A DNA stretch of 64,000 nucleotides from Escherichia coli (GTDB taxonomy: Bacteria; Pseudomonadota; Gammaproteobacteria; Enterobacterales; Enterobacteriaceae): assembly GCF_044324875.1 (NCBI RefSeq), contig NZ_CP172185.1; one strand, given 5' to 3'. Positions 1-8,658 of this stretch are shown here, piece after piece. The position numbers and the translations under genes are program-made. The number at the start of each line of letters is the position of its first letter. Position 1 is the stretch's first letter. The notes under the pieces were generated by a model that was not told the DNA's origin, did no database searches, and worked only from the letters and a program-made list of their open reading frames with translations.

Positions 1-482
1 GGAATCAATGTGCTTTCACCAATGTTGTCGCAGACGACGGGGATAACCTCTGACTCACTGATGCGGTGACAGAGGATATTCTGCGGCTTCAGCGACATCG
101 TCACGATACGGTTATCCTGCAAATAACGCTTCAGCTGTTTCAGTAACTGGCGCAGTTGTGCAATGTCTTCTTCGTAACGGCATTGTTCAGCAAATTCGGT
201 CAGCGTAATGGAGGGCTTGCCGTCAAAATCGGCAATCACATCGTAGACATAACCGGTTCCGCAATCCGTCTCAACGGTACCGTGATAGCGCGGTATTCCA
301 CTCCAGTCTTTTAACCGGCGACCAAGATGCGTGTAGTACTTTAACTCACGGCGGATCTCTTTATCGCCACCATCGCCACGATGGTAGACAATCTTAATAC
401 AACGTTGGGCATCTTCCGGATGCGCATAACATTTCCGATGTCTTCCGGTGCCCAGGGGACTTTGTTCAGATAAGCGAATCAT
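1..482 (-). CDS. yrbL: YrbL, PhoP-regulated protein (partial; 3' end lies beyond the window start)
   Basis: Minus-strand ATG at 480-482 with GGAG 6 nt upstream; my translation begins MIRLSEQSPLGTGRHRKCYAHPEDAQRC and stays open to position 1. Not in the ORF track because no stop falls inside the window. Position next to npr matches K-12 order. Confidence 0.8.
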   Translation of the reverse strand, partial: MIRLSEQSPLGTGRHRKCYAHPEDAQRCIKIVYHRGDGGDKEIRRELKYYTHLGRRLKDWSGIPRYHGTVETDCGTGYVYDVIADFDGKPSITLTEFAEQCRYEEDIAQLRQLLKQLKRYLQDNRIVTMSLKPQNILCHRISESEVIPVVCDNIGESTLI

Positions 483-532
483 GCCATCTCCTGGAAATAT
501 TTTCTGACGATCTCCAGTATGGTCGATTAACT

Positions 533-549
533 TAAACAAAACCTAAACA
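533..549 (-). promoter_or_regulatory. PhoP box (direct repeat TGTTTA-n5-TGTTTA) upstream of yrbL
   Basis: Minus strand reads TGTTTAggtttTGTTTA, about 50 nt upstream of the yrbL ATG; matches the PhoP consensus (T/G)GTTTA-n5-(T/G)GTTTA. Confidence 0.6.
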
Positions 550-694
550 ATGCCTCTTAAGGTTTTCTTAAGGTTCTTCTGAAAGTGAAAAGCGCACAAA
601 ATGTACAAATGACGTTGATTGAGAACGATTTCAGTACGCGCTTTTCTTATTGTCGGGGGAGCTTGAAGGGATTTGAATGTCAAAGTGATGAAGA

Positions 695-967
695 TTAATC
701 TTCATCAAAACCAGAATTAAAGAGGGCGATAACGGCGGCCAGTGCTTCCTCTTCCTGTGGACCGGTCGCTTCAACTTCAATCTGCCGTCCTTTGGCAGAA
801 TCCAGCATCAGCAGTGCAATAACGCTGTTGGCTTCAGCCTCGGTGCCTTCGTCATTACGTAACAGCACTTCAGCGTCGAAACCCTGCATTAATTCAAACA
901 GCTTCATTGCAGGCCGGGCATGCATGCCCAGCTTGTTTGTGATTTCAACAGTTTGCTTGACGGTCAT
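695..967 (-). CDS. ptsO: Phosphocarrier protein NPr of the nitrogen PTS
   Basis: 90-aa [28 protein letters not shown]..., HPr-like; position after rapZ. Confidence 0.93.
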
Positions 968-7680: not shown

Positions 7681-8658
7681 TTATTCAACGAGTATTGGCG
7701 ATAACCAGTACAACATCGCCAGCCATACGATAAATCCGCCAGTTAATAATACCCCTACACCACGGCCCGGTTGCGGGGAGCGCCGCCAGCATAGCAACGC
7801 AAAAATAATGCTCACCAGCAACATCACGCTGTAGTCACGACTGTACGCCAGTGGATCAATCTCTCCTGGCGTTATCAGCGCGGGTAAACCCAACACGATG
7901 ACAATATTAAAAATGTTTGCGCCAATGATATTTCCGACAGCAATGTCGTTTTCACCTTTGCGAACCCCCGCTATTGCGGTTGCCAGTTCCGGCAGGCTGG
8001 TTCCGATAGCAATTGCCGTCAGACCCATCGTCAACTCGCTGATGGCAAAGTAATTCGCCAGCACCGTGGCGTTATCAACCACCATCCGCGTGGCCACTGG
8101 CATGATGATAAGCGCAATGCCGAGCCATAAAAACGCGACGGGCAATCCACCGTCACGCGGCAACTCTGCAAGCTGCTCTCTGGTCAGGCTGTCAGTCCCC
8201 TGACGTTCAGCCTGACGTGCAAGTTTAACAATGAACAGCAGCCATAGCACAGCCAGAAAGAGGAGAAAGATACCATCGCTGCGACTAAGTTGTCCGTCAT
8301 AGAGTACGGAACCGGCCACCACGCTGACCAACAACATTAAGGGTAATTCACGGCGTAGAACATCAGAATGGACGGTAAAAGGACGAACCAGCGCAGCCAG
8401 ACCGAGGATCAGCAATATATTGATAATGTTTGAGCCGAGGGCTGTACCAACGGCTAAATCGCGTTGTTCGTGCAAAGACGCGGCAAGCGAGACGATGATT
8501 TCTGGTAACGATGTACCAATACTGACCACCGTCATGCCGATGATCAGCGGCGGGATGCCAAAGGTTCGGCAAAGAATAGACGCGGCAAAAACCAGGCGGT
8601 CGGCACTGTAAACGACCAAAAGTAAACCAACAATTAACAGTGCCGTAGCTAAAAGCAT
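7681..8658 (-). CDS. yrbG: Na+/Ca2+ exchanger family inner-membrane protein
   Basis: 325-aa polytopic membrane ORF with duplicated GTSLPE motifs. Confidence 0.9.
   Translation of the reverse strand: MLLATALLIVGLLLVVYSADRLVFAASILCRTFGIPPLIIGMTVVSIGTSLPEIIVSLAASLHEQRDLAVGTALGSNIINILLILGLAALVRPFTVHSDVLRRELPLMLLVSVVAGSVLYDGQLSRSDGIFLLFLAVLWLLFIVKLARQAERQGTDSLTREQLAELPRDGGLPVAFLWLGIALIIMPVATRMVVDNATVLANYFAISELTMGLTAIAIGTSLPELATAIAGVRKGENDIAVGNIIGANIFNIVIVLGLPALITPGEIDPLAYSRDYSVMLLVSIIFALLCWRRSPQPGRGVGVLLTGGFIVWLAMLYWLSPILVE

What the first reader, a model, noticed from the sequence alone, without database searches (positions are those of the whole stretch)
533..549. Textbook PhoP box upstream of yrbL
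The minus-strand direct repeat TGTTTAggtttTGTTTA lies about 50 nt upstream of the yrbL ATG, fitting the known PhoPQ regulation of yrbL. It shows that regulatory sites can be read directly from this sequence.
Basis: partly seen in the sequence, partly recalled or inferred. Interest (0 to 1): 0.25.

Follow-up and report, generated by a model that had tools for sequence, protein, structure and literature searches.

The report
Known PhoP box of yrbL promoter

Summary
TGTTTAGGTTTTGTTTA lies on the minus strand at 549..533, with 50 nt between it and the yrbL ATG (482..480). It is the only exact match in the 64 kb window (0.01 expected).

The window is E. coli and matches K-12 exactly from 608 to the ATG.

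- The identical box was gel-shifted by PhoP-P in Shigella, where yrbL falls to 0.02x in a phoPQ deletion.
- The Salmonella orthologue has a PhoP-P DNase I footprint and a single PhoP- and low-Mg2+-dependent start site. Its box sits 11 nt upstream of a CATACT -10 hexamer (class II type, no usable -35).
- The window has the same layout, and it parallels K-12 phoP and mgtA (box, 12 nt, -10).

My phylogenetic footprint across Escherichia, Citrobacter and Salmonella shows the box and -10 conserved, with a variable spacer of fixed length.

Three nuances:
- The exact consensus box is only the majority E. coli allele (3339 of 5425 genomes).
- A perfect PmrA/BasR box (556-572), known to repress yrbL, lies 6 bp upstream and is intact in the four more distant syntenic genera sampled, where the PhoP box has degenerated.
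- A third block (589-608) is more invariant still and remains unexplained.

Novelty: already known. Interest: low.

The parts
533..549 (-). PhoP box, direct repeat TGTTTA-GGTTT-TGTTTA
   Evidence: It is an exact 12/12 match to the (T/G)GTTTA-N5-(T/G)GTTTA consensus and unique in the window, with 0.01 expected. It is identical to the Shigella yrbL site that PhoP-P gel-shifts and differs at one position from the footprinted Salmonella site TCGTTTAGGTTTTGTTTAA. Nine of 17 columns are invariant across 12 Escherichia, Citrobacter and Salmonella sequences.
516..521 (-). -10 hexamer CATACT, 11 nt downstream of the PhoP box
   Evidence: All 6 columns are invariant in 12 sequences, while the 11-nt spacer (522-532) is variable in sequence but fixed in length. 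The same hexamer and the same 11-nt distance are reported for Salmonella yrbL (Tables 1-2). No sigma-70 consensus promoter with a -35 was found in 380-800, as expected for an activator-dependent promoter.
505..514 (-). Probable transcription start region (inferred, not mapped here)
   Evidence: Salmonella S1 mapping places +1 two nt after the -10, with a 32-nt leader. By alignment this corresponds to about 513 here, whereas the usual 6-8 nt spacing from CATACT would give 508-510. No E. coli TSS data could be retrieved.
556..572 (+). PmrA/BasR box, direct repeat CTTAAG-GTTTT-CTTAAG (extended period-11 repeat TCTTAAGGTTT/TCTTAAGGTTC at 555-576)
   Evidence: It is an exact fit to YTTAAK-N5-YTTAAK (half-sites CTTAAG and xTTAAT) and unique in the window, with 0.04 expected. 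Its centre is 23 bp from the PhoP-box centre, which matches the published figure of about 24 bp for yrbL. PmrA is reported to bind and repress the E. coli yrbL promoter. Fourteen of 17 columns are invariant in A1, and the box is intact in Siccibacter, Pluralibacter, Erwinia sp. and Cedecea.
589..608 (-). Conserved block 3, TTGTACATTTTGTGCGCTTT (core TGTAC-N5-GTGC), function unknown
   Evidence: Eighteen of 20 columns are invariant in 12 sequences, more than for the PhoP box. The core is kept at -125 from the ATG in a non-syntenic Enterobacter yrbL copy. It is single-copy in the window and in each E. coli genome. It is not a conserved hairpin, not a sigma-70 consensus promoter, and has no Rfam hit.
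488..492 (-). Shine-Dalgarno AGGAG of yrbL
   Evidence: It lies 5 nt before the ATG and is conserved in the alignments.
1..482 (-). yrbL coding sequence (first 160 codons; the gene runs off the window start)
   Evidence: The translation matches YrbL. RefSeq annotates it as 'PhoP regulatory network protein YrbL', Pfam PF10707.
695..967 (-). npr (ptsO), last gene of the rpoN-hpf-ptsN-rapZ-npr cluster, upstream on the same strand
   Evidence: ORF list and RefSeq annotation. No terminator-like site was found between npr and yrbL.

Best explanation
The repeat at 549..533 is the PhoP-binding site of the yrbL promoter.

When PhoQ senses low Mg2+, or the other cues it responds to, it phosphorylates PhoP. 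A PhoP-P dimer then binds the two TGTTTA half-sites head to tail. The site occupies the place of a -35 element, one helical turn (11 nt) upstream of the weak -10 hexamer CATACT (521..516). Bound PhoP recruits sigma-70 RNA polymerase as a class II activator. Transcription starts a few nucleotides downstream of the -10 and yields a leader of about 30 nt with a strong AGGAG ribosome-binding site.

A PmrA/BasR dimer bound to the CTTAAG-N5-CTTAAG repeat 6 bp further upstream (556-572) represses the promoter, so yrbL takes input from both regulators.

What is shown here: sequence, uniqueness, geometry and conservation. What comes from the literature on identical or orthologous promoters: PhoP binding, PhoP dependence of the start site, and PmrA repression. 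What is inferred: the class II contact (demonstrated only for mgtA), the exact E. coli start site, and how PmrA represses.
For: - The box is an exact consensus match and the only one in 64 kb, with 0.01 expected.
- It lies in the direct orientation, 50 nt from the ATG and 11 nt from CATACT.
- No -35-containing sigma-70 consensus promoter was found in 380-800.
- K-12 MG1655 is identical from block 3 to the ATG.
- K-12 phoP (GGTTTATTTAATGTTTA-12 nt-CATAAT) and mgtA (GGTTTATCGTTGGTTTA-12 nt-TATTAT) share the layout.
- In the phylogenetic footprint of 12 Escherichia, Citrobacter and Salmonella sequences, mean column conservation (share of the majority base) is 0.89 for the box, 1.00 for the -10, and 0.69 for the spacer between them, which has no indels. 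The rest of the npr-yrbL spacer scores 0.47.
- In Salmonella, yrbL has a single start site seen only in wild type at low Mg2+ (S1 mapping, Fig. S1A) and a PhoP-P DNase I footprint (Fig. S3A). It is classed as architecture I, predicted class II.
- In Shigella, the identical 19-mer is gel-shifted by PhoP-P, and yrbL is at 0.02x in a phoPQ deletion.
- In E. coli, a yrbL reporter responds to induced PhoP.
- PmrA binds and represses the promoter, forming a PhoP/PmrA 'bi-fan' motif.
- RefSeq names the product 'PhoP regulatory network protein YrbL'.
Against: - No binding or expression experiment on this exact strain can be run here.
- The two primary E. coli papers (Minagawa 2003, Zwir 2005) were not held, and no E. 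coli TSS coordinate could be retrieved.
- The Salmonella start site lies only 2 nt after CATACT, which is unusually close. Either the start-site call or the -10 assignment may therefore be off by a few nucleotides.
- The yrbL reporter showed the weakest and noisiest PhoP response of the promoters tested in E. coli.
- The box is not invariant. 38% of complete E. coli genomes carry 1-3 changes in it, and it is degenerate in Siccibacter, Pluralibacter, Erwinia sp. and Cedecea.
- No terminator-like site separates npr from yrbL, so some PhoP-independent read-through cannot be excluded.
Confidence: 0.93

Rival explanations
1. yrbL is transcribed mainly by read-through from the upstream rpoN-hpf-ptsN-rapZ-npr cluster, and the PhoP box only modulates that transcription or is vestigial.
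For: All six genes are on the same strand. No terminator-like hairpin with a T-run was found between npr and yrbL in the window, and the spacer RNA folds only weakly, z = -1.8. Siccibacter, Pluralibacter and C. amalonaticus, by contrast, have an obvious GC hairpin followed by a T-run after npr.
Against: Salmonella S1 mapping found a single yrbL start, absent in the phoP mutant. Shigella yrbL drops 50-fold in a phoPQ deletion, which leaves little room for a PhoP-independent transcript. The box and -10 are conserved as a unit, and they accompany yrbL in a non-syntenic Enterobacter copy that has no npr upstream.
Confidence: 0.04
2. The repeat is used mainly by a different OmpR/PhoB-family response regulator with a similar period-11 direct-repeat site, and PhoP dependence is indirect.
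For: Regulators of this family all read tandem repeats of about 11-bp period. PhoP controls other regulators such as RstA, and PmrA via PmrD. A genuine second response-regulator site (PmrA) lies 6 bp away.
Against: Purified PhoP-P gel-shifts the identical sequence and footprints the orthologous box. The half-sites match the PhoP consensus 12/12. They do not match the PmrA (YTTAAK) or RstA (TACA) half-sites.
Confidence: 0.02
3. The match is a chance occurrence in AT-rich intergenic DNA and has no function.
For: PhoP half-sites are short and T-rich. One-mismatch matches occur at chance frequency in the window.
Against: The exact match has an expectation of 0.01 per window. It has the correct orientation and an 11-nt distance to an invariant -10. 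It is conserved across three genera while the flanking spacers diverge. There is direct biochemical evidence on identical and orthologous sites.
Confidence: 0.01

Closest known systems
Salmonella enterica yrbL promoter (architecture I PhoP-activated promoter; Zwir et al. 2012, PMC3335776)
   Same: It is the orthologous gene in the same position. [quoted passage not shown]
   Different: The first half-site is CGTTTA in Salmonella and TGTTTA here, so the window allele is closer to the consensus. The leader is 1 nt shorter in Escherichia.
Shigella flexneri 2a yrbL PhoP site (PMC5775216)
   Same: It has the identical 19-nt sequence tTGTTTAggtttTGTTTAa. It was gel-shifted by PhoP-P, a lacZ fusion was PhoP-dependent, and expression fell to 0.02x in a phoPQ deletion.
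   Different: Nothing differs at the sequence level. The yrbL site was not among the three promoters footprinted in that study.
E. coli K-12 phoP and mgtA promoters
   Same: Both have a direct repeat of xGTTTA-N5-xGTTTA placed where a -35 would be, followed by a fixed short spacer and a -10: phoP GGTTTATTTAATGTTTA-12 nt-CATAAT and mgtA GGTTTATCGTTGGTTTA-12 nt-TATTAT.
   Different: yrbL has an 11-nt rather than a 12-nt spacer and a weaker -10 (CATACT). It also has an adjacent PmrA box and the upstream block 3, neither of which was found in the phoP, mgtA or mgrB regions fetched.
PmrA/BasR box (YTTAAK-N5-YTTAAK; pbgP, pmrC and pmrD promoters)
   Same: The window repeat at 556-572, CTTAAG-GTTTT-CTTAAG, fits the consensus exactly. 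In Citrobacter and Salmonella the antisense reading is CTTAAG-N5-CTTAAT, the canonical half1/half2 pair.
   Different: At PmrA-activated promoters the box replaces the -35 element. Here it lies upstream of the PhoP box and, in the genera where the two half-sites differ (Citrobacter, Salmonella), it reads antisense to yrbL. It is reported to repress, as at pmrD.

Membership tests
PhoP box / PhoP-activated class II (architecture I) promoter | Direct repeat (T/G)GTTTA - 5 nt - (T/G)GTTTA | tested here: met
   TGTTTAGGTTTTGTTTA at 549..533 matches 12/12 specified positions and is unique in the window, with 0.01 expected. The consensus is quoted.
PhoP box / PhoP-activated class II (architecture I) promoter | Single box in the direct orientation, about 12 nt (one helical turn) upstream of the -10 hexamer, overlapping the -35 position | tested here: met
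   The distance to CATACT (521..516) is 11 nt, the same exception the literature notes for yrbL. The spacer length is constant in 16 of the 17 species sequences aligned (all except Pluralibacter, where CATACT is lost), and the same layout is seen in K-12 phoP and mgtA.
PhoP box / PhoP-activated class II (architecture I) promoter | Poor or absent -35 hexamer (activator dependence) | tested here: met
   The consensus scan finds no sigma-70 promoter in 380-800 on either strand. The Salmonella -35 candidate TAGGTT has 4 mismatches.
PhoP box / PhoP-activated class II (architecture I) promoter | Phosphorylated PhoP binds the site in vitro or in vivo | not testable with these tools
   Literature only: EMSA on the identical Shigella sequence and a DNase I footprint on the Salmonella orthologue, Fig. 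S3A.
PhoP box / PhoP-activated class II (architecture I) promoter | Transcription start is PhoP- and low-Mg2+-dependent | not testable with these tools
   Literature only: S1 mapping in Salmonella wild type against a phoP mutant, 0.02x in a Shigella phoPQ deletion, and an E. coli reporter that responds to induced PhoP. The primary E. coli mapping papers were not held.
PhoP box / PhoP-activated class II (architecture I) promoter | Conservation of the site in orthologous promoters | tested here: met
   The site is conserved in Escherichia, Citrobacter and Salmonella, with 9/17 columns invariant and variation mostly at known degenerate positions. It is degenerate in Siccibacter, Pluralibacter, Erwinia sp. 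and Cedecea. Four alleles occur within E. coli.
PmrA/BasR box (for the neighbouring repeat at 556-572) | Direct repeat YTTAAK - 5 nt - YTTAAK | tested here: met
   CTTAAGGTTTTCTTAAG is an exact fit and unique in the window, with 0.04 expected at up to 1 mismatch. The consensus is quoted.
PmrA/BasR box (for the neighbouring repeat at 556-572) | PmrA binds and regulates the promoter | not testable with these tools
   Literature only: PmrA binds and represses the E. coli yrbL promoter, as cited. The primary paper (Zwir 2005) was not held.
RstA box (considered for block 3, 589-608) | TACATNTNGTTACA with tandem TACA half-sites | tested here: not met
   Block 3 reads TACATTTTGTGCGC, which matches 8 of 12 specified positions. 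The second TACA is replaced by a conserved GCGC or GCTC. It is not filed as an RstA box.

The most novel reading that the evidence does not exclude
The yrbL promoter may be a three-input module whose best-known input is its least conserved.

- Block 3 (589-608, core TGTAC-N5-GTGC) is more invariant than the PhoP box and travels with yrbL even to a non-syntenic island. It would be the binding site of a third, so far unidentified regulator at about -80 to -100.
- The PmrA box is intact in the four more distant syntenic genera sampled, where the PhoP box has decayed. PmrA/BasR control would then be the ancestral input, and the consensus PhoP box a later refinement in the Escherichia lineage.
- That refinement is still polymorphic within E. 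coli, where four box alleles occur.
Probability: 0.3. Interest if true: 0.3.

Novelty: already known. Interest (0 to 1): 0.1.

Why it matters
The finding shows that a well-defined response-regulator site can be read correctly from raw sequence, which validates the first-stage reading. It adds nothing to what is known about PhoP.

The side observations carry the modest value:
- yrbL encodes a protein-kinase-like protein of unknown function, and its transcript is a standard model for RNA polymerase pausing.
- Its promoter appears to hold a third, deeply conserved element that no held paper describes.
- The natural allelic series in its PhoP box could be used to study how box quality tunes output.

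Tried and rejected
Literature that could not be reached:
- The primary E. coli papers (Minagawa 2003, PMC161583; Zwir 2005, PMC548500) and the original pause paper (PMC4277259) were not held.
- An E. coli yrbL TSS coordinate was sought in the supplements of PMC12709180, PMC5389652 and PMC13215669, but none were held as text.
- A loose literature query for SELEX or ChIP hits at yrbL returned only irrelevant papers.

Readings of block 3 that were tested and rejected:
- RstA box: only the first half matches.
- Conserved RNA hairpin or npr terminator: K-12 breaks the partner arm and the fold z-score is -1.8.
- Sigma-70 consensus promoter on either strand: none found.
- Known RNA family: only a spurious snoRNA hit at E = 0.5.
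- Repeated regulatory motif: it is single-copy per genome, absent from the phoP, mgtA and mgrB regions, and the other core matches in the window are inside ORFs.
- By inspection only (not tool-tested), I also compared it with sigma-54, CRP, MlrA, marbox, OmpR, PhoB and CpxR consensus sequences recalled from memory. None fitted the conserved positions.

Other:
- The second PhoP-like hit at 8623-8639 was rejected as a chance match inside a coding sequence.
- The single-protein genome scan reached only close relatives. I had to go through protein homologues and their contigs to reach other genera.

Full report
**Observation**

It is the only exact match to TGTTTA-N5-TGTTTA on either strand of the 64 kb window, where dinucleotide-preserving shuffles give 0.01. 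Loosening the pattern to KGTTTA-N5-KGTTTA with one mismatch adds a single hit at 8623-8639. That count is at chance level (2 found, 0.83 expected), and the hit lies inside a 325-aa ORF.

The minus-strand ORF beginning ATG at 482..480 translates to MIRLSEQSPLGTGRHRKCYAHPEDAQRC..., which is YrbL. It is preceded by AGGAG at 492..488. Exactly 50 nt separate the box from the ATG.

**Identity of the locus**

The first 1000 nt match 5425 of 5426 complete E. coli genomes, 100% to strain MEI003. The annotation there is rapZ, npr and 'PhoP regulatory network protein YrbL'. All of rpoN-hpf-ptsN-rapZ-npr-yrbL lie on the minus strand of the window. K-12 MG1655 is identical to the window from position 608 through the ATG, so the K-12 literature applies directly.

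**Promoter anatomy**

Reading the minus strand, the elements are, in order:
- ...TTGTACATTTTGTGCGCTTT (608..589, 'block 3')
- 16 nt
- CTTAAGAAAACCTTAAG (572..556)
- AGGCAT
- TGTTTAGGTTTTGTTTA (549..533)
- AGTTAATCGAC (11 nt)
- CATACT (521..516)
- a leader of about 30 nt containing AGGAG
- ATG

A consensus scan finds no sigma-70 promoter with a -35 element anywhere in 380-800, and no terminator-like site. This is what is expected of an activator-dependent promoter in which the activator site replaces the -35.

**Comparison with mapped PhoP sites**

I fetched the K-12 phoP, mgtA and mgrB regions and extracted the boxes:
- phoP: GGTTTATTTAATGTTTA-12 nt-CATAAT
- mgtA: GGTTTATCGTTGGTTTA-12 nt-TATTAT
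- yrbL: TGTTTAGGTTTTGTTTA-11 nt-CATACT

The layout is the same in all three. My regular expression did not pick up a box in the mgrB region.

**Published evidence**

Zwir et al. 2012 (PMC3335776) list Salmonella yrbL among 'architecture I' promoters. Their entry gives box TCGTTTAGGTTTTGTTTAA, direct orientation, 11 nt to the -10 (noted as the one exception to 12 nt), -10 CATACT, a -35 candidate with 4 mismatches, and a 32-nt leader. S1 mapping showed a single start site, present in wild type at low Mg2+ and absent in a phoP mutant. These promoters are predicted to work by class II activation, which was demonstrated for mgtA. The supplement confirms that both the S1 mapping (Fig. S1A) and a PhoP-P DNase I footprint (Fig. 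S3A) were done on yrbL itself.

Lin et al. 2018 (PMC5775216) list tTGTTTAggtttTGTTTAa for Shigella yrbL, which is identical to the window. They show a PhoP-P gel shift and a PhoP-dependent lacZ fusion, and report yrbL at 0.02x in a phoPQ deletion. Their footprints were on other promoters.

A 2026 E. coli study uses a yrbL reporter that responds to induced PhoP, though with the lowest sensitivity of the set.

The orthologue data contradict it. The primary E. coli papers were not held, and I could not retrieve an E. coli TSS coordinate.

**Phylogenetic footprint**

This is independent evidence produced here. A genome scan with YrbL returned Escherichia species, Citrobacter species and S. enterica arizonae. 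Alignment of the 220 nt upstream of the ATG from 12 sequences was then quantified:

| Element | Mean column conservation (majority-base share) | Invariant columns |
|---|---|---|
| -10 CATACT | 1.00 | 6/6 |
| Block 3 | 0.96 | 18/20 |
| PmrA-type repeat | 0.95 | 14/17 |
| PhoP box | 0.89 | 9/17 |
| 11-nt spacer between box and -10 | 0.69 | 2/11 (no indels) |
| Other inter-element gaps | about 0.6 | |
| Rest of the npr-yrbL spacer | 0.47 | |

Conserved islands at fixed spacing in a diverging background are the signature of functional sites.

The + strand at 556-572 is CTTAAGGTTTTCTTAAG. The extended period-11 repeat is TCTTAAGGTTT/TCTTAAGGTTC at 555-576. It is unique in the window, with 0.04 expected even when one mismatch is allowed. 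It fits the PmrA consensus YTTAAK-N5-YTTAAK, with half-sites CTTAAG and xTTAAT, exactly.

Its centre is 23 bp from the PhoP-box centre, which agrees with the published 'about 24 bp' for yrbL. PmrA is reported to bind and repress the E. coli yrbL promoter, forming a PhoP/PmrA 'bi-fan'.

How PmrA represses from a site 6 bp upstream of the PhoP box is my inference. It could be steric exclusion of PhoP or of the polymerase alpha subunit.

**Wider taxa**

Through YrbL homologues and their contigs I obtained syntenic rapZ-npr-yrbL-mtgA loci from Siccibacter, Pluralibacter, Erwinia sp. and Cedecea. In all four the PmrA-type repeat is intact, while the PhoP box is degenerate:
- CGTTGAaagttCATTTA
- AATTTGagttaAATTTA
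- CATTGAgccttTATTTA
- CGTTTTaccgtCATTGA

The 11-nt spacing to a CATACT- or TAGACT-like hexamer is kept except in Pluralibacter.

A non-syntenic Enterobacter hormaechei copy lies next to a tRNA gene. It carries TGTTTAatgtcCATTTA-11 nt-CATAAT and a block-3-like sequence at the same -125 position, but only a degenerate PmrA-like repeat.

**Variation within E. coli**

- A 65-nt core (PmrA box to -10) is 100% identical in 3123 of 5425 genomes.
- A 32-nt query covering only the box and its downstream spacer is identical in 3339 genomes, has one mismatch in 881, and has two or three mismatches in 1205.
- In the four variant genomes I sequenced through, every difference in those 32 nt falls inside the PhoP box: TGTTTAGGTTTCGTTTA (O145), TGTTTAGATTTCGTTTA (strain 536) and TATTTAGATTTCGTTTA (CEA212U).
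- In strain 2009C-3133 an IS1 element sits immediately after ...TTAATCGAC, separating the box from the -10 and the gene.

The 'textbook' box is therefore the majority allele, not a fixed feature.

**Block 3**

TTGTACATTTTGTGCGCTTT (608..589) is the most invariant non-coding stretch here, and I could not explain it.
- It is single-copy in the window and in each genome.
- It is absent from the phoP, mgtA and mgrB regions.
- It is not a consensus promoter and has no Rfam match.
- It is not a conserved hairpin. K-12 breaks the partner arm that exists in the window, and the fold z-score is -1.8.
- It matches the RstA box TACATNTNGTTACA only in its first half.
- It accompanies yrbL in the non-syntenic copy, so it belongs to yrbL rather than to the end of npr.

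My best guess is a site for a third regulator at about -80 to -100.

**Rival explanations**

- Read-through from npr is conceivable, because no terminator is visible. It is contradicted by the single PhoP-dependent start and the 50-fold phoPQ dependence.
- Use of the site by another response regulator is contradicted by direct PhoP-P binding and by the half-site sequences.
- Chance is excluded by the statistics, the geometry and the conservation.

**Verdict**

The site is already known, including its footprint in the orthologue and its gel shift on the identical sequence. Interest is low.

The caveats are the unverified E. coli start site, the unusually short 2-nt distance from -10 to +1 reported in Salmonella, and the fact that binding and regulation rest on the literature rather than on anything testable here.

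Noticed in passing
It is unique in the window and known from the literature to repress yrbL. It is intact in the four more distant syntenic genera sampled, where the PhoP box has degenerated.
   Followed up: yes
window 589-608 (minus strand): Block 3, TTGTACATTTTGTGCGCTTT, has 18/20 columns invariant across Escherichia, Citrobacter and Salmonella, which is more than the PhoP box. Its core, TGTAC-N5-GTGC, is kept at -125 from the ATG even in a non-syntenic Enterobacter copy. No known consensus, RNA family, promoter or hairpin explains it.
   Followed up: partly
window 533-549; L024, L025, L027, L028: The PhoP box is polymorphic within E. coli. The exact consensus allele is in 3339 of 5425 complete genomes. 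The others carry CGTTTA in half-site 2, a spacer G>A, or TATTTA in half-site 1. In the four variant genomes examined, the 11-nt spacer and the -10 are unchanged.
   Followed up: partly
L026 (E. coli 2009C-3133, NZ_CP013025.1 2839495-2839671): An IS1A element is inserted immediately after the 11-nt spacer, between the PhoP box and the CATACT -10. This natural disruption disconnects yrbL from its PhoP-dependent promoter.
   Followed up: partly
window 483-694; L011, L018, L019: No terminator-like hairpin with a T-run follows npr in the window or in K-12. Siccibacter, Pluralibacter and C. amalonaticus, by contrast, have an obvious GC hairpin plus T-run there. E. coli also has at least two quite different alleles of the upstream half of the npr-yrbL spacer: a 36-nt query hit only 3679 of 5426 genomes.
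   Followed up: partly
window 475-490 (minus strand): yrbL is the source of the 'yrbL consensus elemental pause element' (G-10 Y-1 G+1) used in RNA polymerase pausing studies. Two candidate motifs overlap the start codon: GAGATGGCATG (U-1 at 481) and GGCATGATTCG (C-1 at 476). The second fits the reported CTP-then-GTP order. The held texts do not give the exact position.
   Followed up: partly
L013 (NZ_JUET01000135.1, 420 bp): A 420-bp contig in a Tannerella forsythia ATCC 43037 assembly encodes a peptide 98% identical to E. coli YrbL. This is almost certainly E. coli contamination of that assembly.
   Followed up: no
L021 848-924 and 1201-1779: Enterobacter hormaechei carries a divergent yrbL copy (60% identity) outside the rapZ-npr-mtgA context. 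It lies about 280 bp downstream of a tRNA gene that ARAGORN calls 'tRNA-Stop' (anticodon tta), which suggests an island-borne paralogue that kept its own promoter module.
   Followed up: no
L023 (human gut metagenome contig): Two convergent PF10707 (YrbL-PhoP_reg) paralogues sit next to a PF06293 (Kdo/lipopolysaccharide kinase) gene and downstream of dnaE, and no PhoP-like box lies upstream. K-12 RefSeq now calls YrbL a 'protein kinase-like domain-containing protein', and some homologues show weak Pkinase hits.
   Followed up: no
window 8623-8639 (minus strand): A one-mismatch PhoP-like repeat, TGTTAATTGTTGGTTTA, lies just inside the 5' end of a 325-aa ORF (7681-8658). The count is at chance level, so it is not considered a site.
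   Followed up: yes
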